A DNA stretch of 6,870 nucleotides, taken from a virus. Its lineage: Duplodnaviria > Heunggongvirae > Uroviricota > Caudoviricetes. Below are positions 1 through 6,870 of this stretch, piece by piece. The DNA is taken from the IMG/VR virus record IMGVR_UViG_2660238600_000004. The stretch is one strand, 5' to 3'. The position numbers and the translations under genes are program-made. How positions within the stretch are numbered: position 1 is the first letter of the stretch; every line of letters starts with the position of its first letter. Under the pieces are notes generated by a model, which was given only the letters and a program-made list of their open reading frames with translations, was not told the DNA's origin and ran no database searches.

Positions 1-1284
1 TTACTTCTTCGCCTCTGCAACCACTTTACTACCCACGCCGCGGTTATTGTATTCCCACATGCGGTTGTAGTTAGTGTCATTCAGATTGCGCTGTATTTCG
101 TCGTTATCATCTACGCTGCCGGTATTACCCGCAAACGGACGATTAGAGATCACCGCATCGGCCCACGGTTTAGCCGTGTTAAAACCTTCGTTGATGGCGC
201 TATCACGGATCACCACCTGACCGTTGGTATTGGCATCAACATCCAGCGAGCGGCCCAGTTGCGCCACACCATCACCGAAAGCATTGAAACGGCTGTTTAC
301 GGCGAGGAAACCGTAGTAAATGTTGGACAGCGTAGCCGGTGCAAACACATACGCTTCTTGCTGAGTACGTGAGTTCACCACGCGGAATTCGGTGTTATCG
401 AACACCACTGCGCCGCGACCAGAAACGATATCCACATCCCCTTCAATGTAGCTGTTGGTCACCAGCGTACGCGGCTGACGATTCGTTTCCAGACGGTTCT
501 GCACACCGCTGTTGGTGACAAAGAAGGTGTTCTGACGACCGAGAATGTTAACGTTGTTAATCTGTACCTGGTCACCATCAGTACGCAGTGCCACCGCCGG
601 ATGGTTACCTGCATCTACGCTATCGCCCAGCGTGTTTTCGATGGTCAGATTTTGCAGTTGCAGGCCATTGTTTTGTGACCAGAAGACCGCAGAGCAGAGA
701 ACACCGATACTGTCGCTGCGTTTGCTCTGGCAGCTATCGTACATATACCACGCTGGTTTACCTGGCATATATTTGCCGCGCGGGTTGACGTCGTGACGCC
801 AGTCGGCAGGGCTCATGCCACCATCAAGGGAAAGCCCAATCTTCACATCAATCGGTTTTTCACCTGTACCGTACAGAGTAATTCCACCCGGAGCGGCAGG
901 GACATATACCGTTCCCTGATACTCACCAGGCATCACGGCAATATACTGGCGCTTGTTGGTACGCTTGATAATTGCCGCATCTACCGCCGCCTGAATCGTG
1001 GTATGCGTTACACCTTGAGTGCCCGCCGGGCCGACAACAAAGTCAGGTTGCGCAGGCAGGGTAATCGGGGAAGGATTCCACGCTGCAGCACCTGGTGTCA
1101 GGGATGCAAAATAGTGTTGAGCATCGAAATTCTGCGCTTCTTTTGCCGACAGAATCGGGCGAGAAGAGGTACCAGGCGCGGTTTGATCAGAAGGACGTTG
1201 ATCGGGCGGGGTTGAGCTACAGGCGGTCAGCGTCACGCCAAAAGCCAATGCCAGCGCCAGACGGGAAACTGAAAATGTGTTCAC
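1..1284 (-). CDS. ybhC: YbhC-like putative lipoprotein (pectinesterase-family / acyl-CoA thioesterase-like), host chromosomal gene flanking attL
   Basis: Complete 427-aa ORF with GTG start at 1284 and stop at 1-3. N-terminus MNTFSVSRLALALAFGVTLTAC has a signal peptide and lipobox-like LTAC. Position immediately beside the lambda att core matches the known ybhC-attB-ybhB arrangement in E. coli. Identity is recalled, not searched. Confidence 0.8.
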   Translation of the reverse strand: MNTFSVSRLALALAFGVTLTACSSTPPDQRPSDQTAPGTSSRPILSAKEAQNFDAQHYFASLTPGAAAWNPSPITLPAQPDFVVGPAGTQGVTHTTIQAAVDAAIIKRTNKRQYIAVMPGEYQGTVYVPAAPGGITLYGTGEKPIDVKIGLSLDGGMSPADWRHDVNPRGKYMPGKPAWYMYDSCQSKRSDSIGVLCSAVFWSQNNGLQLQNLTIENTLGDSVDAGNHPAVALRTDGDQVQINNVNILGRQNTFFVTNSGVQNRLETNRQPRTLVTNSYIEGDVDIVSGRGAVVFDNTEFRVVNSRTQQEAYVFAPATLSNIYYGFLAVNSRFNAFGDGVAQLGRSLDVDANTNGQVVIRDSAINEGFNTAKPWADAVISNRPFAGNTGSVDDNDEIQRNLNDTNYNRMWEYNNRGVGSKVVAEAKK

Positions 1285-1330
1285 AGGTTGCTCCGGGCTA
1301 TGAAATAGAAAAATGAATCCGTTGAAGCCT

Positions 1331-1345
1331 GCTTTTTTATACTAA
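1331..1345. other. attL core: 15-bp lambda att common core (overlap region) GCTTTTTTATACTAA
   Basis: Exact 15-mer GCTTTTTTATACTAA seen at 1331-1345. It is preceded by bacterial-side sequence (tgaagcctgc) and followed by phage P'-arm sequence (gttggcattataaaaaagcattgcttatcaatttgttgcaacgaacaggtcactatcagtcaaaataaaatcatt), i.e. a B-O-P' arrangement. Confidence 0.9.
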
Positions 1346-1365
1346 GTTGGCATTATAAAAAAGCA

Positions 1366-1421
1366 TTGCTTATCAATTTGTTGCAACGAACAGGTCACTA
1401 TCAGTCAAAATAAAATCATTA
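1366..1421. promoter_or_regulatory. attL P' arm protein-binding sites: IHF H'-like site (tatcaatttgttg, about 1371-1383) and three tandem Int arm-type sites (aggtcactat / cagtcaaaat / aaaatcatta, about 1392-1421)
   Basis: Sequence matches the IHF consensus WATCAANNNNTTR and the Int arm-type consensus C/AAGTCACTAT known for the lambda P' arm. Sites lie between the core and the int stop codon (1419-1421). Confidence 0.7.
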
Positions 1422-2489
1422 TTTGATTTCAATTTTGTCCCACTCCCTGCCTCTGTCATCACGATACTGTGATGCCATGGTGTCCGACTTATGCCCGAGA
1501 AGATGTTGAGCAAACTTATCGCTTATCTGCTTCTCATAGAGTCTTGCAGACAAACTGCGCAACTCGTGAAAGGTAGGCGGATCCCCTTCGAAGGAAAGAC
1601 CTGATGCTTTTCGTGCGCGCATAAAATACCTTGATACTGTGCCGGATGAAAGCGGTTCGCGACGAGTAGATGCAATTATGGTTTCTCCGCCAAGAATCTC
1701 TTTGCATTTATCAAGTGTTTCCTTCATTGATATTCCGAGAGCATCAACATGCAATGCTGTTGGGATGGCAATTTTTACGCCTGTTTTGCTTTGCTCGACA
1801 TAAAGATATCCATCTACGATATCAGACCACTTCATTTCGCATAAATCACCAACTCGCTGCCCGGTAACAACAGCCAGTTCCATTGCAAGTCTAAGCCAAC
1901 ATGGTGATGATTCTGCTGCTTGATAAATTTTCAGGTATTCGTCAGCCGTAAGTCTTGATCTCCTTACCTCTGATTTTGCAGCGCGAGTGGCTGCGACCGG
2001 GTTTGTTGTTATATGGCCTTCAGCTATAGCCTCTCGGAATGCATCGCTCAGTGTTGATCTGATTAACTTGGCTGATGCCGCCTTTCCCTCGTCTATGTAT
2101 CCATTGAGCATTGCCGCAATTTCTTTTGTGGTGATGTCTTCAAGTGGAGCATCTGGCAGACCCCTCCTTATTGCTTTAATTTTGCTCATGTAATTTATGA
2201 GTGTCTTCTGCTTGATTCCTCTGCTGGCCAGGATTTTTTCGTAGCGATCAAGCCATGAATGTAACGTAACGGAATTATCACTGTTGATTCTCGCTGTCAG
2301 AGGCTTGTGTTTGTGTCCTGAAAATAACTCAATGTTGGCCTGTATAGCTTCAGTGATTGCGATTCGCCTGTCTCGGCCTAATCCAAACTCTTTACCCGTC
2401 CTTGGGTCCCTGTAGCAGTAATATCCATTGTTTCTTATATAAAGGTTAGGGGGTAAATCCCGGCGCTCATGACTTCGCCTTCTTCCCAT
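1419..2489 (-). CDS. int: Lambda-type integrase (tyrosine site-specific recombinase), 356 aa, apparently intact
   Basis: Complete ORF MGRRRSHERRDLPPNLYIRNNGYYCYRDPRTGKEF...REWDKIEIK, which I recognise as lambda Int. It sits directly beside attL and its start overlaps the xis 3' end, as in lambda. Confidence 0.95.
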   Translation of the reverse strand: MGRRRSHERRDLPPNLYIRNNGYYCYRDPRTGKEFGLGRDRRIAITEAIQANIELFSGHKHKPLTARINSDNSVTLHSWLDRYEKILASRGIKQKTLINYMSKIKAIRRGLPDAPLEDITTKEIAAMLNGYIDEGKAASAKLIRSTLSDAFREAIAEGHITTNPVAATRAAKSEVRRSRLTADEYLKIYQAAESSPCWLRLAMELAVVTGQRVGDLCEMKWSDIVDGYLYVEQSKTGVKIAIPTALHVDALGISMKETLDKCKEILGGETIIASTRREPLSSGTVSRYFMRARKASGLSFEGDPPTFHELRSLSARLYEKQISDKFAQHLLGHKSDTMASQYRDDRGREWDKIEIK

Positions 2490-2685
2490 TTCTGATCCTC
2501 TTCAAAAGGCTACCTGTTACTGGTCGATTTAAGTCAACCTTTACCGCTGATTCGTGGAACAGATACTCTCTTCCATCCTTAACCGGAGGAGGGAATATCC
2601 TGCACTCGCGTACCCATCGACGAACTGTTTCAAGGCTTCTTGGGCGTCGCTGGCGTGCGTTCCACTCCTGAAGTGTCAAGTACAT
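2467..2685 (-). CDS. xis: Lambda-type excisionase Xis, 72 aa
   Basis: ORF MYLTLQEWNARQRRPRSLETVRRWVRECRIFPPPVKDGREYLFHESAVKVDLNRPVTGSLLKRIRNGKKAKS matches lambda Xis. It overlaps the int start by 23 nt. Confidence 0.95.
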   Translation of the reverse strand: MYLTLQEWNARQRRPRSLETVRRWVRECRIFPPPVKDGREYLFHESAVKVDLNRPVTGSLLKRIRNGKKAKS

Positions 2686-2711
2686 CGCAAAGTCTCCGCA
2701 ATTACACGCAA
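2663..2711 (-). promoter_or_regulatory. pI-like int promoter region with a CII-type TTGC-N6-TTGC activator site (minus-strand TTGCGTGTAATTGC at 2698-2711)
   Basis: The minus strand reads TTGCGTGTAATTGCGGAGACTTTGCGATGTACTTGACAC. The TTGC-N6-TTGC motif lies just upstream of the xis ATG, so a transcript from here would begin inside xis and express int alone, as described for lambda pI. The exact -10 and start site are not determined. Confidence 0.55.
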
Positions 2712-2724
2712 GAAAAAACCGCCA

Positions 2725-2892
2725 TCAGGCGGCTTGGTGTTCTTTCAGTTCTTCAATTCGAATATTGGTTACGTCTGCATGTGCTATCTGCGCCCACAGC
2801 ATCCAGTGGTCATAGCAGTCGCTGATGTTCTCGGCTTCGATAACTCTGTTGAATGGTTCTCCATTCCATTCACCTGTGACTCGGAAGTGCAT
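2725..2892 (-). CDS. Small hypothetical protein, 55 aa (lambda orf55-like, position-conserved ORF downstream of xis)
   Basis: ORF MHFRVTGEWNGEPFNRVIEAENISDCYDHWMLWAQIAHADVTNIRIEELKEHQAA, not in the supplied track because it is under 60 aa. A GGAG motif lies 7-10 nt upstream of the ATG. Its size and spacing from xis match the orf55 I recall in lambda. Confidence 0.55.
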   Translation of the reverse strand: MHFRVTGEWNGEPFNRVIEAENISDCYDHWMLWAQIAHADVTNIRIEELKEHQAA

Positions 2893-2930
2893 TTATCATC
2901 TCCATAAAACAAAACCCGCCGTAGCGAGTT

Positions 2931-2962
2931 CAGATAAAAGAAATCCTCGTCAGTGCGAGGAT
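2931..2962 (-). terminator. Candidate intrinsic terminator for leftward transcription (7-bp stem atcctcg/cgaggat, 6-nt loop, then a U-rich tract on the minus strand)
   Basis: Inverted repeat at 2943-2949 / 2956-2962. On the minus strand it is followed by TTTCTTTTATCTG (plus 2931-2942). No folding energy was computed. Confidence 0.35.
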
Positions 2963-3134
2963 GCTGTTCATTGCTGCTATACACTTTTTTGCTCTCAACG
3001 TAAGCGGTAGCCCATTCTGTTGGGTTGGTGCAGTTGCTTTTAGGAAATGCTATTTACCCCTTAAATGTCGGCTGAAAGAGCTAAAATCCATGCAAAAAAT
3101 TTACGCAATTTTGTGTATTATTGTGCAGTAAGTA

Positions 3135-3737
3135 ATGAGCTATTTTCTGCGCAAAAAATGGATGGTAAATTTGTCCGGGTCAGGAAAAATTTTATGGGCG
3201 CTAAACATGAAAAAAGATTCGTATCCTTATTTGATTTGCATGACAGTTTCAGGGCTGATCTTTATTTTCCTTTTCTTCTGGTGGCGGGCAGATATCTACA
3301 GGGTCACGTTTCTTAATCAGAGTATATCCCACTATTACATTCTGTTTAGCATGGGAATAGCTTTTCTGTTATCTCTGTTTTGGGTTAAGAAGGGGATAGT
3401 AAAACAAAGCGGCTGGAAGAGTCTGTCAGCATACATTAAGGTTTATGCAGGGATGTGCATATTTGCTGGATTTTTTCTGATTATACCCCTTACGACACTA
3501 ACTTATTTTTTGCCTGGAGAGACATCGTCTTATGTTGCACCGTATCGGTATACTTCCGGTAGTTCAAAAAGTTGTTCTGGAGCTGAGGTGGATGACCCCG
3601 ATCTACATGAGAATATTCGCATTTGCTATCCGTATGGCAATTATGAGTACGATAATATTATCTATGTTGAAAAGAAAATTAATATATTAGGTGCGGTAGT
3701 GACATATGCACAGACCGCGCGTGATGATACTGAATGA
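3135..3737 (+). CDS. Hypothetical membrane protein, 200 aa: three predicted N-terminal TM helices plus an ~75-aa C-terminal soluble domain; AT-rich moron on the strand opposite the early-left operon
   Basis: Complete ORF. Hydrophobic stretches PYLICMTVSGLIFIFLFFWW, SHYYILFSMGIAFLLSLFWV and YIKVYAGMCIFAGFFLIIPLTTLTYFL. Base composition is visibly more AT-rich than the flanking lambda-like DNA. A hairpin terminator follows. Start codon is uncertain (in-frame ATGs at 3135, 3162 and 3207, none with a strong SD). I recognise no family. Confidence 0.6.
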   Translation: MSYFLRKKWMVNLSGSGKILWALNMKKDSYPYLICMTVSGLIFIFLFFWWRADIYRVTFLNQSISHYYILFSMGIAFLLSLFWVKKGIVKQSGWKSLSAYIKVYAGMCIFAGFFLIIPLTTLTYFLPGETSSYVAPYRYTSGSSKSCSGAEVDDPDLHENIRICYPYGNYEYDNIIYVEKKINILGAVVTYAQTARDDTE

Positions 3738-3771
3738 TATAGTATATAGCGGGCAAGTTTTAGTTAATTTA

Positions 3772-3806
3772 TCGAGGTAATATAATTTACCTCGACTCGT
3801 TTGTTC
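3772..3806 (+). terminator. Candidate intrinsic terminator downstream of the membrane-protein gene (9-bp stem tcgaggtaa/ttacctcga, loop tataat, T-rich tail)
   Basis: Perfect inverted repeat at 3772-3780 / 3787-3795, followed by ctcgtttgttctgg. It lies 35 nt after the stop codon at 3735-3737. Confidence 0.45.
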
Positions 3807-3947
3807 TGGTATTAATATTTCGCTTTACGACCGATTTTTATCTGATGATATCATGCGGTTTTCATATACTGACTTACTGTCTTTTCTCCGTTAGCGATTT
3901 TCTCCTGCTCAGCGATGATTTTATCTTTGGCTTCTAGTTAATTTCGC

Positions 3948-4169
3948 TCACTTCGAACCTCTCTGTTTACTGATAAGCTCCAGATCTTGCTGGCAACTGG
4001 CACAAGTCCGACAACCCTGAACGGCCAGTCGTCTTCGTTCATCTATCGGATCGCCACACTCACAACAATGAGTGGCAGATATAGCCTGGTGGTTCAGGCG
4101 GCGCATTTTTATTGCTGTGTTGCGCTGTAATTCTTCAATTTCTGATGCTGAATCAATTATGTCTGCCAT
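3948..4169 (-). CDS. TraR/DksA-family C4 zinc-finger protein, 73 aa (lambdoid TraR-like, Orf73-type)
   Basis: ORF MADIIDSASEIEELQRNTAIKMRRLNHQAISATHCCECGDPIDERRRLAVQGCRTCASCQQDLELISKQRGSK. The CxxC-N17-CxxC spacing and length are typical of F-plasmid TraR and phage TraR-like RNA-polymerase-binding proteins. Confidence 0.8.
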   Translation of the reverse strand: MADIIDSASEIEELQRNTAIKMRRLNHQAISATHCCECGDPIDERRRLAVQGCRTCASCQQDLELISKQRGSK

Positions 4170-4220
4170 CTTTCATTAATCCCTGAATTGTTGGTTAATA
4201 CGCTTGAGGGTGAATGCGAA

Positions 4221-4246
4221 TAATAAAAAAGGAGCCTGTAGCTCCC
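4221..4246 (-). terminator. Candidate short intrinsic terminator on the minus strand (GGAGC-5 nt-GCTCC followed by TTTTTTTATT on the minus strand)
   Basis: Inverted repeat at 4231-4235 / 4241-4245 with a run of seven A at 4224-4230 on the plus strand. The stem is only 5 bp, so this is weak. Confidence 0.3.
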
Positions 4247-4267
4247 TGATGATTTTGCTTTTCATGT

Positions 4268-4483
4268 TCACCGTTCCTTAAAGACGCCGTTCAACATGCC
4301 GATCGCCAGGCTTAAATGAGTCGGTGTGAATCCCATCAGCGTTACCGTTTCGCGGTGCTTCTTTAGTACGCTACGGCAAATGTCATCGACGTTTTTATCC
4401 GGAAACTGCTGTCTGGCTTTTTTGATTTCAGAATTAGCCTGACGGGCAATGCTGCGAAGGGCGTTTTCTTGCTGAGGTGTCAT
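4268..4483 (-). CDS. Hypothetical small protein, 71 aa (alternative upstream start at 4549 gives 93 aa)
   Basis: ORF MTPQQENALRSIARQANSEIKKARQQFPDKNVDDICRSVLKKHRETVTLMGFTPTHLSLAIGMLNGVFKER. The ATG at 4481-4483 overlaps the stop of the upstream micro-ORF (ATGA), suggesting translational coupling. No family recognised. Confidence 0.45.
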   Translation of the reverse strand: MTPQQENALRSIARQANSEIKKARQQFPDKNVDDICRSVLKKHRETVTLMGFTPTHLSLAIGMLNGVFKER

Positions 4484-4563
4484 TGAACAAGCCCCATGTC
4501 GGCAAGCATAAGCACACAGAATATGAAGCCCGCTGCCAGAAAAATGCATTCAGTGGTTGTCAT
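4480..4563 (-). CDS. Candidate hydrophobic micro-ORF, 27 aa (MTTTECIFLAAGFIFCVLMLADMGLVQ), translationally coupled on both sides
   Basis: Its ATG at 4561-4563 overlaps the orf63-like stop (ATGA) and its TGA overlaps the next ATG (ATGA). The peptide has one predicted TM-like segment. It is below the ORF-track size cutoff. It could instead be a coupling artefact, and its frame overlaps the N-terminal extension of the 93-aa version of the next ORF. Confidence 0.3.
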   Translation of the reverse strand: MTTTECIFLAAGFIFCVLMLADMGLVQ

Positions 4564-4751
4564 ACCTGGTCTCTCTCATCTGCTTCTGCTTTCGCCACCA
4601 TCATTTCCAGCTTTTGTGAAAGGGATGCGGCTAACGTATGAAATTCTTCGTCTGTTTCTACTGGTATTGGCACAAACCTGACTCCAATTTGAGCGAGGCT
4701 ATGTGCCATCTCGATACTCGTTCTTAACTCAACGGGAGATGCTTTGTGCAT
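4560..4751 (-). CDS. Small hypothetical protein, 63 aa (lambda orf63-like by size and position)
   Basis: [66 protein letters not shown]. Its length (192 nt with stop) and 28-nt overlap with the upstream ORF match the orf63/orf60a arrangement I recall for lambda. Confidence 0.55.
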   Translation of the reverse strand: MHKASPVELRTSIEMAHSLAQIGVRFVPIPVETDEEFHTLAASLSQKLEMMVAKAEADERDQV

Positions 4752-4906
4752 ACAGCTCCCCGTTTATTATTTATCTCCTCAGCCAGCCGCTGTGCTTTCA
4801 GGGGATTTCTGATAACAGAAAGGCCGGGAAATACCCAGCCTCGCTTTGTAATGGAGTAGACGAAAGTGATCGCGCCTACCCGGATATTATCGTGAGGATG
4901 CGTCAT
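4724..4906 (-). CDS. Small hypothetical protein, 60 aa (lambda orf60a-like); start chosen at the ATG overlapping the exo stop
   Basis: [63 protein letters not shown]. The track begins it two codons earlier (4912). The ATG at 4904-4906 forms an ATGA overlap with the exo stop, matching the 4-nt exo/orf60a overlap in lambda. Confidence 0.5.
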
Positions 4907-5583
4907 CGCCATTGCTCCCCAAATACAAAACCAATTTCAGCCAGTGCCTCGTCCATTTTTTCGATGAACTCCGGCACCATCTCGTCAAAACTCGCCATGT
5001 AATTTTCATCCCGCTCAACCACGACATAATGCAGGCCTTCACGCTTCATTCGTGGGTCATAGTTGGCAAAGTACCAGGCATCTTTTCGCGTCACCCACAT
5101 GCTGTACTGCACCTGGGCCATGTAAGCCGACTTTATGGCCTCGAAACCACCGAGCCGGAATTTCATGAAATCCCGGGAGGTAAACGGGCATTTCAGCTCA
5201 AGGCCATTGCCGTCACTGCATAAACCATCGGGAGAGCAGGCGGTGCGCATACTTTCGTCGCGATAGATGATCGGGGATTCAATAACATTTACGCCGGAAG
5301 TGAACTCAAACAGGGTTCTGGCGTCGTTCTCGTACTGTTTTCCCCAGGCCAGCGCTTTAGCGTTAACTTCCGGAGCCACACCGGTGCAAACCTCAGCCAG
5401 CAGGGTGTGGAAGTAGGACATTTTCATGTCAGGCCACTTCTTTCCTGATCGGGGCTTTGCTATCACGTTGTGAACTTCTGAAGCGGTGATGACGCCGAGC
5501 CGTAATTTGTGCCATGCATCATCCCCCTGTTCGACAGCTCTCACGTCGATCCCGGTACGCTGCAGGATAATGTCCGGTGTCAT
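4903..5583 (-). CDS. exo: Lambda exonuclease (Red-alpha, 5'-3' dsDNA exonuclease), 226 aa, intact
   Basis: [71 protein letters not shown]...[10 protein letters not shown], recognised as lambda Exo. Its start overlaps the bet stop in ATGA fashion. Confidence 0.95.
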
Positions 5584-5774
5584 GCTGCCACCTTCTGCTC
5601 AGTGGCTTTCTGTTTCAGGAATCCAAGAGCTTTCACTGCTTCGGCCTGTGTCAGTTCTGACGATGCGCGAATGTCGCGGCGAAATATCTGGGAACAGAGC
5701 GGCAATAAGTCGTCATCCCATGTTTTATCCAGGGCAATCAGCAGAGTGTTAATCTCCTGCATGGTTTCATCGTT
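5580..5774 (-). pseudogene. bet: 3' fragment of bet (Red-beta), C-terminal ~64 codons only; N-terminal ~200 codons absent
   Basis: The minus frame reads ...[64 protein letters not shown], matching the lambda Bet C-terminus as I recall it. Immediately upstream the frame reads SYPAQPS after a stop at 5796-5798, instead of the Bet sequence (..ERDITPV..). Homology therefore ends near 5775. Confidence 0.8.
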
Positions 5775-5797
5775 ACTTGGTTGAGCAGGATAGCTTC

Positions 5798-5980
5798 ATG
5801 GCTAGGTTGGCTGAAATGGAAAAGGAACTCAGTGAGGCAAAACAGGCTGTCATTCTCAACGCACCACGCCACCAGAAACTGAAGGAAATTAGTGAAGGTA
5901 TTGTGTCGATGTTTCGTGTGGACCCAGATCTGGCTGGTCCATTGATGGCGATGGTTACTACCATGCTGGGGGCGATATGA
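5798..5980 (+). CDS. Hypothetical small protein, 60 aa (MARLAEMEKELSEAKQAVILNAPRHQKLKEISEGIVSMFRVDPDLAGPLMAMVTTMLGAI); possibly a remnant of a gene upstream of O
   Basis: ORF with AGGA 7 nt upstream of the ATG at 5798. The track starts it at a TTG at 5777. It lies exactly at the bet truncation joint. No HTH or known family recognised. Confidence 0.3.
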   Translation: MARLAEMEKELSEAKQAVILNAPRHQKLKEISEGIVSMFRVDPDLAGPLMAMVTTMLGAI

Positions 5981-6066
5981 CAGGTTCAGAAATGGCGAAA
6001 GCCGGTCTGCTGGAACAGAACCGACTTTCAGGTGCAAATCGTAACACACTCATTGCGGGAGGAATT

Positions 6067-6870
6067 ATGGCAAACACTGCTGAGATATTCAATTTTCCAG
6101 TGCCGGATGCGGCACAAAAGGAGCCGCGCGTGGCAGATCTCGATGATGGTTATACGCGCATTGCAAATGAGTTGCTGGAAGCTGTGATGCTGGCCGGATT
6201 AACACAGCACCAGCTTCTGGTCTTCCTAGCTGTCATGCGCAAAACATATGGCTTTAATAAAAAACTGGATTGGGTGAGCAACGAGCAACTGTCCGAATTG
6301 ACCGGGATATTGCCGCACAAGTGTTCTGCTGCAAAAAGTGTTCTGGTAAAGCGTGGGATTCTTATTCAGAGCGGGCGGAATACCGGCATTAATAATGTGG
6401 TCAGTGAATGGTCAACATTACCCGAATCAGGTAAGAAAAATAAAGTTTACCTGAAAGAGGTAAATTTACCTGAATCAGGTAAAAAAAGTTTACCCAAATC
6501 AGGTAAAGACGTTTACCCGAATCAGGTAAACACAAAAGACAAACTAACAAAAGACAATATAAAACCTTTTTCGTCCGAGAATTCTGGCGAATCCTCTGAC
6601 CAGCCAGAAAACGACCTTCCTGTGGAGAAACCAGATGCTGCAATTCAGAGCGGCAGCAGGTGGGGGACAGCAGAAGACCTGACCGCCGCAGAGTGGATGT
6701 TTGACATGGTGAAGACCATCGCGCCATCAGCCAGAAAACCGAATTTTGCAGGGTGGGCTATACCGCCAGCTTGGTTGATAAAAAATGGTTGCGACTGGCA
6801 GCAAGGAGGAGTCATGGCTGATTTGAGAAAAGCAGCGCGTGGTCGGGAATGCCAGGTAAGAATCCCTGGC
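6067..6870 (+). CDS. Lambdoid O-family replication initiator (N-terminal iteron-binding domain plus internal origin); 3' end not defined in window
   Basis: GGGAGGA SD at 6056-6062 and ATG at 6067. Translation MANTAEIFNFPVPDAAQKEPRVADLDDGYTRIANELLEAVMLAGLTQHQLLVFLAVMRKTYGFNKKLDWVSNEQLSELTG...VSEW parallels the lambda O N-terminus (MTNTAKILNF...VADLDDGYARLSNMLLEA...LRKTYGWNKPMD...SQLSEIT...ISEW). The frame stays open to the window end. Sequence after about 6755 appears to derive from ninE/ybcO-like DNA, so the native 3' end is probably missing. Confidence 0.8.
   Translation, partial: MANTAEIFNFPVPDAAQKEPRVADLDDGYTRIANELLEAVMLAGLTQHQLLVFLAVMRKTYGFNKKLDWVSNEQLSELTGILPHKCSAAKSVLVKRGILIQSGRNTGINNVVSEWSTLPESGKKNKVYLKEVNLPESGKKSLPKSGKDVYPNQVNTKDKLTKDNIKPFSSENSGESSDQPENDLPVEKPDAAIQSGSRWGTAEDLTAAEWMFDMVKTIAPSARKPNFAGWAIPPAWLIKNGCDWQQGGVMADLRKAARGRECQVRIPG
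6417..6530. repeat. Replication-origin iterons: five ~19-bp direct repeats, consensus TTTACCYRAATCAGGTAAA, each an internal dyad (TTTACC..GGTAAA)
   Basis: Copies at about 6417-6435, 6446-6464, 6465-6483, 6489-6507 and 6512-6530, all inside the O-like coding frame. They encode a repeated LPESGKK-like peptide. Layout is as in ori-lambda but the repeat sequence differs. Confidence 0.8.
6531..6590. other. AT-rich tract immediately after the iterons (candidate DNA-unwinding region of the origin)
   Basis: cacaaaagacaaactaacaaaagacaatataaaacctttttcgtcc is strongly A/T-rich. Its position relative to the iterons mirrors ori-lambda. Confidence 0.6.
6756..6821 (+). pseudogene. ninE-like 3' fragment (reads ..GYTASLVDKKWLRLAARRSHG-stop); no in-frame start codon upstream
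   Basis: The frame ending in TGA at 6819-6821 gives a C-terminus I recall from prophage NinE proteins. The same frame has a stop at 6702-6704 and no ATG after it. The stop overlaps the next ATG (ATGGCTGA). Identity is from memory. Confidence 0.4.
6814..6870 (+). CDS. YbcO-like (DUF1364, cysteine-rich putative nuclease of the nin region) protein, 5' end only; continues beyond window
   Basis: Strong SD AAGGAGGA at 6802-6809 and ATG at 6814. MADLRKAARGRECQVRIPG matches the N-terminus I recall for E. coli DLP12 YbcO. Confidence 0.5.
   Translation, partial: MADLRKAARGRECQVRIPG

What the first reader, a model, noticed from the sequence alone, without database searches (positions are those of the whole stretch)
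5580..6066. bet truncated to its last ~64 codons and joined to unrelated DNA: immunity and control region absent
The minus-strand frame matches the Bet C-terminus up to NDETMQEINT (about 5774) and then changes abruptly to unrelated sequence ending in a stop. About 290 bp later the plus-strand O-like replication gene begins. Within this window gam, kil, cIII, N, the cI/cro immunity region and cII are all absent. This looks like a deletion joint that fused the early-left recombination module to a replication module, leaving a prophage that keeps intact int, xis and exo and an origin but no repressor. Such an element cannot follow the normal lambda induction programme.
Basis: partly seen in the sequence, partly recalled or inferred. 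Interest (0 to 1): 0.65.

Follow-up and report, generated by a model that had tools for sequence, protein, structure and literature searches.

The report
Prophage deletion joint at recurrent breakpoints
A decayed lambda-like prophage lost its 3.2-kb control region in one deletion, which is ordinary, but both ends of that deletion lie at TA steps that many unrelated E. coli prophages have also used as deletion ends, with no known cause.

Summary
On the minus strand, 5580-5774 encodes only the last 64 codons of Bet (NDETMQEINT...), and homology to bet stops at 5775.

The "unrelated DNA" is not foreign. It is the 3' third of the ydaT-type gene that sits in the cII position of the same prophage lineage. 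The window is collinear with the att-lambda prophage of E. coli E24377A except for a clean 3,200-bp deletion. That deletion removed bet codons 1-197, gam, kil, the S24 repressor, the cro-like gene and the 5' part of ydaT. The joint (5772-5775) has GTTA microhomology.

A second TA joint at 6756-6760 cuts the O gene and removes P, so the retained origin has no initiator. Neither joint occurs in any of 5,426 complete E. coli genomes.

The unexpected result concerns the bet end of the joint, GGT-TA-AC (the GTTAAC at lambda 32217):
- It is joined to at least 13 different partners in other genomes, and either side of it can be kept.
- The ydaT end has 5 partners.
- Several other sites of the form GG(N)TA or TA(N)CC in bet, gam and exo recombine with each other.

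The joint itself is an ordinary decay event. The recurrence of the sites is unexplained and I found no description of it.

The parts
1..1284 (-). ybhC, the host gene that flanks att-lambda
   Evidence: 427-aa ORF. Annotated ybhC in E24377A and MSI001 at the collinear position.
1331..1345 (+). Lambda att core GCTTTTTTATACTAA (attL)
   Evidence: Exact match; 0.01 matches expected by chance.
1419..2489 (-). Intact lambda-type integrase (356 aa)
   Evidence: Pfam Phage_integrase and Arm-DNA-bind_1.
2467..2685 (-). Intact excisionase (72 aa)
   Evidence: Pfam Exc, E 4e-41.
4903..5583 (-). Intact exo (226 aa, lambda exonuclease/YqaJ family)
   Evidence: Pfam YqaJ, E 2e-29; 99% identical to widespread Exo proteins.
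5580..5774 (-). bet remnant: the last 64 codons plus the stop. This is the Red-beta C-terminal (Exo/SSB-binding) domain only.
   Evidence: Intact bet in relatives is 261 codons.
5772..5775 (.). Joint 1: GTTA is shared by both parents, and the minimal shared core is TA at 5774-5775. 3,200 bp are missing relative to E24377A.
   Evidence: BLAST offsets 3000 and 6200 against L001; three-way display of window and both parents.
5776..5980 (+). 3' remnant of the ydaT-type gene in the cII position (C-terminal 68 codons plus the stop)
   Evidence: Pfam YdaT_toxin profile positions 45-90 of 92. Annotated 'toxin YdaT domain-containing protein' or cII in relatives.
6064..6092 (-). Promoter-like site at the position of lambda pO (oop), pointing towards the joint
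   Evidence: TTGAAT-17-CATAAT with an upstream TG. This is a consensus match only; the analogy to lambda pO comes from my own knowledge.
6067..6760 (+). N-terminal about 231 codons of an O-type replication initiator. Relatives are annotated from the position equivalent to 5977.
   Evidence: Pfam Phage_rep_O, E 1.5e-34. Homology to O of relatives ends at 6760.
6417..6530 (+). Origin iterons: five 19-bp repeats of the form TTACCYRAAWSAGGTAA
   Evidence: Pattern search; sequence.
6756..6760 (.). Joint 2: O (...GGGC-TA-ACGAT) joined to the end of ninE (...CGGA-TA-TACCGCC). 3,345 bp are missing relative to MSI001: the O C-terminus, P, ren, other genes and most of ninE.
6761..6870 (+). ninE tail (stop at 6819-6821) and the start of the DUF1364/ybcO gene (ATG at 6814), which is in frame with the truncated O

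Best explanation
SHOWN. The window is the left arm of a cryptic lambdoid prophage integrated at att-lambda. Relative to intact members of its own lineage it has two internal deletions.
- Joint 1 (5772-5775) removed 3,200 bp: bet codons 1-197, gam, kil, the S24 repressor, the cro-like ydaS and the 5' two-thirds of ydaT.
- The two parental sequences, CATCGT-TA-ACCGG in bet and GCGGT-TA-CCTGG in ydaT, were joined so that one TA (GTTA) remains.
- Joint 2 (6756-6760) is another TA-to-TA join. It truncates O and removes P.

INFERRED consequences. The left operon has lost pL, and pR is gone as well. No repressor, cro, N-type control, Bet annealase domain, Gam, full O or P remains. The element is therefore a fixed, non-inducible remnant. 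Its int, xis and exo genes, its att site and its iterons could act only if a related helper phage supplied regulators and O/P in trans.

SHOWN, about how the joint arose. It was not made at random positions. The bet site is joined to at least 13 different partners in other genomes, the ydaT site to 5, and further sites of the form GG(N)TA or TA(N)CC in bet, gam, exo and a lysis gene are reused and are joined to each other.

INFERRED mechanism, about 45% likely. DNA is broken at such TA steps and the two outer ends are rejoined through the 2-nt TA, with loss of the piece between them. The agent would be an unidentified nuclease, topoisomerase or recombinase with loose site preference. The main alternative is passive slippage or microhomology end-joining, about 35% likely.

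The confidence of 0.8 applies to the shown parts (a real internal deletion between two recurrent sites), not to the inferred mechanism.
For: Deletion and collinearity:
- Window 1-5775 matches E24377A 3001-8775 at 99.0%, and 5772-6760 matches 11972-12960 at 98.7%. The result is the same against MSI001, plus 6756-6870.
- The genes in the missing blocks are listed.
- No IS lies at either joint.

Recurrence at bet:
- The 60-aa Bet C-terminal ORF is called as a separate gene in 1,109 blocks of the collection.
- Seven different left partners are all joined at ...|TAACGATG. Parents were identified for six, with microhomology TAAC, TT, TTA, TT, TA and TA.
- Six fusion proteins consist of Bet 1-197 (...DITPV) followed by something different. 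DNA for five shows ...CCGGT-TA-partner.
- In the held loci the only bet breakpoints seen are this site.

Prevalence in 5,426 complete genomes: 21, 7, 6 and 4 genomes for four of the classes, and 0 for the window's joint.

Recurrence elsewhere:
- The ydaT site has five left partners at ...|TACCTGG.
- Sites at the start of exo, exo codon 134, gam and bet codon 167 are each reused.
- A 293-bp TA-TA deletion in a lysis gene starts at GCGCGGT-TA.

Flank motif: 16 of 19 junction TA sites fit GG(N0-1)TA or TA(N0-1)CC, against 26% of all TA sites. The motif was defined after seeing the data.

All classes whose partner orientation is known are collinear deletions.
Against: - The exact joint was found in no other genome, contig or metagenome, so it rests on a single assembly.
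- The break-and-rejoin mechanism is inferred only. No enzyme was identified, and two classes (c2, c4) share only T or TT with bet rather than TA.
- The flank-motif statistic is post hoc.
- Searching by ORF and by protein favours breakpoints that leave callable ORFs. That bias narrows the detectable window to about 150 nt but cannot explain coincidence at a single nucleotide.
- Another TAACCGGAG site, in xis, showed no reuse, although that test had low power.
- Survivorship (only harmless deletions persist) could inflate the apparent preference for deletions over inversions.
Confidence: 0.8

Rival explanations
1. Passive illegitimate recombination. The joint arose by replication slippage or microhomology-mediated end joining at a chance GTTA match. 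The apparent hot spots reflect the enormous E. coli population, imperfect extended homology between sites (CGGNTA...), and survivorship of deletions that remove toxic genes while keeping folded domains.
For: - Several pairs share more than TA: bet CCGGTTAA and int GCGGCTAA; exo GGCGGTAC and ydaT CGCGGTTAC; a 12-19-nt repeat in L146.
- The hot spot lies at the boundary between the N-terminal part (annealase domain plus linker) and the C-terminal domain of Red-beta.
- All events are deletions, as slippage predicts.
- Two classes use TT rather than TA.
Against: - Selection on domains cannot focus 13 independent events on one dinucleotide within a linker of about 60 nt.
- Slippage does not predict a preference for the weak TA pair, or for only 2 nt of identity across 0.7-10 kb.
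- No other breakpoint in bet was seen in the sampled loci.
Confidence: 0.35
2. Mosaic exchange. The left arm (int to the Bet C-terminal domain) and the right arm (ydaT 3' end, then O) come from two different phages joined by recombination, as the first reader's phrase 'fused to a replication module' implies.
For: - Lambdoid phages are mosaics.
- The right arm is 98-99% identical to phages (PhiR34_1, Turner) that match the window at a second place of unchecked extent.
- L149 shows the same ydaT boundary behind a lambda-type cII.
Against: Hundreds of E. coli genomes carry both arms in the same prophage at att-lambda, in the same order and orientation, at 99% identity, with the missing 3.2 kb between them. 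One deletion explains everything.
Confidence: 0.05
3. Assembly chimera. The joint is a mis-join of two contigs at a short repeat.
For: Neither joint 1 nor joint 2 is present in any of 5,426 complete genomes, in the species-representative genomes or in the metagenome contigs.
Against: - A 4-nt overlap is too short to mislead an assembler.
- Both arms are collinear parts of one prophage.
- The joint has the same TA-to-TA anatomy, at the same two sites, as joints present in many independent complete genomes.
Confidence: 0.03
4. IS-mediated adjacent deletion, or a hot spot for an insertion sequence such as IS30 or IS5.
For: - IS elements are common in these prophages (IS3-family, IS66 and IS1).
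- IS30 makes 2-bp target duplications and has a hot spot in lambda (PMC9333248).
- TTAA fits the IS5 target YTAR (my own knowledge).
Against: - No IS or IS scar lies at any of the joints.
- The IS30 lambda hot spot is at 33244-33498, not 32217.
- The ydaT, exo and gam sites do not fit YTAR.
Confidence: 0.03

Closest known systems
Cryptic (defective) lambdoid prophages of E. coli, such as DLP12 and Rac
   Same: An integrated lambdoid genome reduced by internal deletions, retaining int/xis-side genes and fragments of nin-region genes. The right-hand part of close relatives carries DLP12-type genes: ren, emrE, ylcJ, ybcK, ninE, ybcO, rusA.
   Different: It sits at att-lambda next to ybhC rather than at the DLP12 or Rac sites. 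Its particular pair of deletions is not found in 5,426 complete genomes.
Short-homology-dependent illegitimate recombination in E. coli and lambda (Spi- / lambda-bio assays)
   Same: RecA-independent type of join with a few bases of shared sequence and no mobile element at the joint. The general concept is from my own knowledge; related papers are listed.
   Different: Here the shared bases are nearly always TA, the flanks are G/C-rich (GG(N)TA or TA(N)CC), and the same few sites are reused with many partners. I found no report of a hot spot at lambda 32217.
Deletion hot spots with one fixed endpoint at an enzyme's nick or arrest site, for example rolling-circle origins of M13 and pC194, or Ter sites (from memory; not checked in the library)
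   Same: One endpoint is fixed to the nucleotide and the other is variable. Partners sometimes resemble the fixed site.
   Different: No origin, nick site or Ter sequence is recognisable at GGTTAACG. Either side of the site can be the retained side, which argues against a polar replication-linked process.
IS30 natural target hot spot LHS in lambda
   Same: A nearly palindromic preferred site in the lambda early-left region, with a 2-bp staggered attack (PMC9333248).
   Different: It lies at lambda 33244-33498 (kil/cIII region), has an unrelated sequence, and leaves an IS30 copy behind. None is present here.

Membership tests
Functional Red-beta (Bet) annealase | N-terminal DNA-annealing domain (Pfam RecT PF03837, about residues 1-180) | tested here: not met
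   Only codons 198-261 remain. The remnant has no Pfam hit, and intact relatives are 261 aa with PF03837.
Functional Red-beta (Bet) annealase | C-terminal Exo/SSB-binding domain | tested here: met
   63 of 64 residues are identical to PDB 8tfu and 6m9k 'Recombination protein bet'.
Lambdoid prophage at att-lambda | att core next to ybhC, followed by int and xis | tested here: met
Inducible (complete) lambdoid prophage | Repressor/cro immunity region with early promoters | tested here: not met
   The S24 repressor and the ydaS (cro-like) gene of relatives lie inside the missing 3,200 bp.
Inducible (complete) lambdoid prophage | Complete replication genes O and P | tested here: not met
   O is cut at 6760, and P lies in the missing 3,345 bp.
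Inducible (complete) lambdoid prophage | Late, lysis and structural genes, and attR | not testable with these tools
   The window ends at 6870 and the source genome could not be found.
Lambda-type origin (ori inside O) | Tandem iterons inside the O coding region | tested here: met
   Five 19-bp iterons at 6417-6530.
Microhomology-type internal deletion | Both flanks collinear in an intact relative, a short shared sequence at the joint, and no inserted DNA | tested here: met
IS-mediated adjacent deletion | An IS copy at the joint | tested here: not met
   There is no IS at 5775 or 6760. IS insertions elsewhere are easily recognised in the junction census.
Conservative site-specific recombination (serine or tyrosine recombinase) | Both partners carry an extended, similar recognition sequence around a fixed crossover | tested here: inconclusive
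   The crossover is always at or next to TA, and the flanks show a weak palindromic GG(N)TA(N)CC trend. No extended consensus is evident, and two classes lack TA in the partner.
Conservative site-specific recombination (serine or tyrosine recombinase) | A cognate recombinase acting on these sites | not tested
   Relatives carry the large serine recombinase gene ybcK. No link to the sites was tested.
O-iteron-like secondary sites as breakpoints | Breakpoint TA sites score high with a matrix built from the iteron half-sites | tested here: inconclusive
   Four of 15 sites fall in the top 6.5%, but the main bet site is only at the 22nd percentile.

The most novel reading that the evidence does not exclude
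A sequence-preferring DNA breakage-and-rejoining activity exists in E. coli or its lambdoid phages. It could be a nuclease, a topoisomerase or a recombinase, and it would make 2-nt TA joins. It acts on loosely palindromic GG(N)TA(N)CC-like sites, with GGT-TA-AC in bet (lambda 32217) as its best substrate. It would be a main driver of prophage decay and of in-frame gene fusions and mosaic joints in lambdoid genomes. The window's joint would be one product, made between two of its preferred sites.
Probability: 0.3. Interest if true: 0.8.

Novelty: new variant of a known kind. Interest (0 to 1): 0.5.

Why it matters
The joint itself only shows that this prophage is a dead remnant. It has no repressor, no early promoters, no Bet annealase, and no complete O or P, so it cannot be induced. 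It could at most be excised, or have its origin fired, by a related helper phage.

The wider point concerns how prophages decay and how lambdoid mosaics form. The standard view is that illegitimate recombination occurs at random positions and is then filtered by selection. Here one dinucleotide in bet has been used at least 13 separate times, and a small set of similar TA sites recombine with one another. Because TA mostly falls on codon boundaries, these joins often give in-frame fusions.

If a specific activity underlies this, deletion and module exchange in temperate phages would be partly directed and therefore predictable. The question can be tested directly with a lambda lysogen and a synonymous change of one codon.

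Tried and rejected
1. Fixed polarity ("the ACCG side is always lost"). This was suggested by 7+5 classes and by zero reciprocal hits in IMG/VR. It was refuted by six Bet(1-197) fusion proteins that keep the other side.
2. TAACCG, shared by the bet and ydaT sites, as a sufficient motif. It occurs at the expected frequency in the prophage. A xis site with the same TAACCGGAG 9-mer showed no reuse, though the test had low power.
3. The TAACGAT heptamer shared by the bet joint and the O side of joint 2. The O site is not reused in IMG/VR, so this is probably chance.
4. Iteron-like O-binding half-sites as breakpoints. The matrix test was weak and the main site scores poorly.
5. Chi sites. There are none in 17.9 kb of the intact relative.
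6. Hairpins. Only a weak 5-bp stem lies next to the bet site, and it is absent from a common allele.
7. IS30 lambda hot spot. It is at a different place with a different sequence. IS-mediated deletion in general is excluded because no IS lies at the joints.
8. A HpaI/HincII-type blunt cut at GTT^AAC. This is compatible with the bet data, but the other reused sites (GGTTACC, GCGTACC, GTTTACC) are not GTTAAC, and the T before AAC is always kept.
9. Gyrase. The paper read (PMC6379681) gave no explicit core consensus that I could test. From memory, the GTAC-type sites fit a GRYC stagger but the bet site does not.
10. From memory only, and none fits the crossover position: RusA (cuts 5' of CC), Xer, Hin/Gin/Pin, Rci sfx, IS200/IS605 TnpA, CRISPR targeting and type I/III restriction. 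The IS608-type prediction was worked through on class c3 and failed.
11. Finding the source genome. The exact joint sequences and window-specific ORFs gave nothing.
12. Literature searches for a known hot spot found none.

Full report
**What the window is.** ybhC occupies 1-1284 on the minus strand. It is followed by an exact lambda att core at 1331-1345, an intact lambda-type integrase (1419-2489) and excisionase (2467-2685), several small exo-xis-region genes (a TraR/DksA zinc finger and DUF1382, with DUF1317 by annotation of relatives) and an intact exo (4903-5583). This is the left arm of a lambdoid prophage integrated at att-lambda. Hundreds of complete E. coli genomes carry 99%-identical DNA at the same chromosomal place: 797 genomes cover at least 80% of the window, always in two or three pieces.

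**Checking the observation.** The minus-strand frame of 5580-5774 reads NDETMQEINT...EQKVAA followed by a stop. That is 64 codons, preceded by seven unrelated codons and a stop. The 64 residues correspond to the crystallised C-terminal domain of Red-beta (8tfu, 6m9k), and the RecT-family annealase domain is absent. Nucleotide identity to intact bet ends at 5775. The O-like gene's lambda-equivalent start is at 6067.

**What the 'unrelated' DNA is.** From 5772 onward the window matches, at 98-99%, the 3' end of the gene that phage records call cII and RefSeq calls 'toxin YdaT domain-containing protein'. That gene is followed directly by the O gene, and Pfam places 5771-5977 in YdaT_toxin, profile positions 45-90 of 92.

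Against the E24377A prophage, the window aligns as 1-5775 to 3001-8775 and 5772-6760 to 11972-12960. This is one clean 3,200-bp deletion with a 4-nt overlap (GTTA). The missing block holds bet codons 1-197, gam, a kil-type division inhibitor, an S24 repressor, a YdaS/cro-like regulator and the first two-thirds of ydaT. The parents read CATCGT-TA-ACCGGAG (bet) and ATCGCGGT-TA-CCTGGTTG (ydaT). The window reads CATCGT-TA-CTTGGTTG. The single nearby difference, C to T at 5777, falls on the inner C of a CCTGG site.

**A second deletion.** Homology to O stops at 6760, and 6756-6870 matches the end of ninE and the start of the DUF1364/ybcO gene of strain MSI001, 3,345 bp further on. The parents are GGGC-TA-ACGATATCC (O) and CTCGGA-TA-TACCGCC (ninE). 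O is thus cut after about 231 codons and P, ren and other genes are gone, although five 19-bp iterons survive at 6417-6530. The truncated O happens to be in frame with ybcO.

**Consequences (inferred from established lambda biology).** The element has no repressor, no early promoters, no annealase, no Gam and no complete O or P, so it cannot be induced or replicate on its own. int, xis, exo and attL are intact and could respond only to a helper phage. However, the joint is an internal deletion of one prophage rather than a fusion to a foreign module. N, cIII and a lambda-type cII are not annotated even in the intact relatives of this lineage that I examined. The 'origin' is an orphan.

**Is the joint real?** Neither joint 1 nor joint 2 is present in any of 5,426 complete E. 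coli genomes. Joint 1 is also absent from the species-representative genomes and the metagenome contigs. The source genome could not be traced, so a chimera cannot be formally excluded. The collinearity of both arms, and the match in anatomy to many verified joints described below, make it very unlikely.

**The unexpected part: the bet endpoint is reused.** The 60-aa ORF left by the truncation is called as a separate gene in 1,109 blocks of the assembly collection. In the loci read, and in targeted scans of IMG/VR and metagenomes that excluded the intact context, non-bet DNA is joined to bet at the same place...|TAACGATGAAACC, in seven different contexts:
- the window's ydaT;
- the end of kil;
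- the middle of gam;
- ninG;
- three others.

Intact parents were found for six of them. The shared bases are TAAC, TT, TTA, TT, TA and TA, and the deletions span 0.7 to about 10 kb.

A protein search with full-length Bet then showed the mirror image. Six different proteins consist of Bet 1-197 (...ERDITPV) fused to two kinds of integrase (one at two positions), to DUF551, to the C-terminal part of Exo and to an unidentified tail. The DNA of five reads ...CCGGT-TA-partner. At least 13 different joins therefore use one dinucleotide, the TA of GTTAAC at lambda 32217, and either side of it can be kept.

In the loci sampled without regard to context, no other breakpoint inside bet was seen. Four of the classes occur in 21, 7, 6 and 4 complete genomes from unrelated sources.

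**The ydaT endpoint is reused too.** Its 60-aa C-terminal ORF is a separate gene call in 127 blocks. Besides frameshifted copies, there are four further left partners (exo antisense, int antisense, a cro-like gene, and DUF2740 behind a lambda-type cII), all joined at ...|TACCTGGTTGAG. One of these lies within a 12-19-nt repeat.

**Other reused sites.** All of them are TA steps:
- the start of exo, GCG-TA-CCGGG, joined to gam, to bet codon 113 and to a third partner;
- exo codon 134, GTT-TA-CCTC, joined to bet V197 and two others, plus a frameshift at the same spot;
- the gam site, CAT-TA-CCCG, joined to bet and to the start of exo;
- bet codon 167, GGG-TA-TC, with two partners;
- a 293-bp deletion in a lysis gene that starts at GCGCGGT-TA.

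Of 19 distinct junction TA sites, 16 have GG within 0-1 nt on the 5' side or CC within 0-1 nt on the 3' side. Only 26% of all TA steps in the intact prophages do (binomial 2e-7). The motif was defined after seeing the data, so that figure is indicative only.

In E. coli genes TA mostly spans the boundary between codon position 3 and position 1. This explains why so many of the joins are in-frame fusions. Every class whose partner orientation is known is a collinear deletion, and none is an inversion.

**Mechanism.** What is shown is a TA-to-TA deletion between two sites that are each preferred. Why they are preferred is not shown.

I favour, at about 45%, breakage at such TA steps with rejoining of the outer ends through the 2-nt TA. 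Four observations support this:
- each retained side always ends exactly at the TA;
- as little as 2 nt is shared across kilobases;
- either side of a site can be kept;
- the flanks show a loose palindromic trend.

Passive slippage or microhomology end-joining followed by survivorship is the main rival, at about 35%. It fits the pairs with extended imperfect homology and the absence of inversions. It does not explain the TA specificity, or 13 events at one dinucleotide.

No candidate enzyme could be tied to the sites. Hypotheses involving Chi, hairpins, IS30, IS elements, HpaI-type cutting, iteron-like O sites and several recombinases were examined and were either not supported or left inconclusive.

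**Known or new?** Decay of prophages by internal deletion is well known, and the window's joint is one more case. Library searches turned up no description of a deletion hot spot at this site in bet, or of a network of reused TA sites in lambdoid prophages. The library is incomplete, so prior description cannot be excluded.

**Verdict.** The joint is ordinary in kind but was made between two recurrent breakpoints whose cause is unknown. That recurrence is the part worth following up.

Noticed in passing
window 6067-6870 (+): After joint 2, the truncated O reading frame runs through 18 codons of out-of-frame ninE tail straight into the ATG of the DUF1364/ybcO gene (6814) in the same frame. This predicts an O(1-231)-YbcO fusion ORF that continues past the end of the window.
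   Followed up: partly
window 5777: The only mismatch next to joint 1 is a C to T change that turns CCTGG into CTTGG. It falls on the inner C of a Dcm-type site, as expected for 5-methylcytosine deamination. It also creates a TTG that the ORF listing takes as a start codon.
   Followed up: no
window 6064-6092 (-): A promoter-like site (TTGAAT-17-CATAAT with TG) lies just inside the start of O and points leftward, at the place where lambda has pO for oop RNA. After the deletion it would read towards the bet remnant and exo. No terminator-like site was found.
   Followed up: no
L151, L154, L148, L150, L152 around locus position 6975; P0232; L155; L157: Small indels occur at or next to the same reused sites. 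Examples are an extra T in ydaT GGTT[T]ACC, loss of the A at exo codon 134 (TTTACC to TTTCC, giving a frameshift protein), an extra T at the kil|bet joint, and loss of a G in the xis TAACCGG. This suggests local fragility or slippage at these sites.
   Followed up: partly
L002 9430-9810; L146 4338-5911; L160 1223-2830; L162 1525-2941; L154 4070-5468: The slot between the kil-type gene and the S24 repressor of these prophages holds a different cargo in each relative: a BamE-like lipoprotein, HipA_2 plus DUF3037, a 535-aa SIR2_2 protein, an ASCH protein, and DUF6932. It looks like a variable moron or defence slot.
   Followed up: no
P0010 (224 aa, 331 member sequences): Bet is interrupted after ...EINTLL by a sequence that translates as EPPRKSWRLNSLRKR. 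I read this, from memory, as the end of an IS629/IS1203-type IS3-family element. It is a common IS insertion allele of bet, distinct from the TA joins.
   Followed up: no
L003 7399-8183; P0043-P0051 (208 aa): There is a widespread frameshifted bet allele with one A missing from GAAAAT near codon 180. It also yields the separate 60-aa C-terminal ORF.
   Followed up: no
window 3135-3737 (+): A 200-aa ORF with several hydrophobic stretches and no Pfam match lies on the strand opposite to the surrounding early-left genes. It is conserved as a 'hypothetical protein' in relatives (WP_000120064).
   Followed up: no
L001 14849-15960; L147 9853-11379; L158 999-2525: Relatives carry a DLP12-type block (emrE, ylcJ, and the large serine recombinase gene ybcK, 508 aa, which is a pseudogene in E24377A) inserted after ren. 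The block looks like a small element lodged inside the prophage.
   Followed up: no
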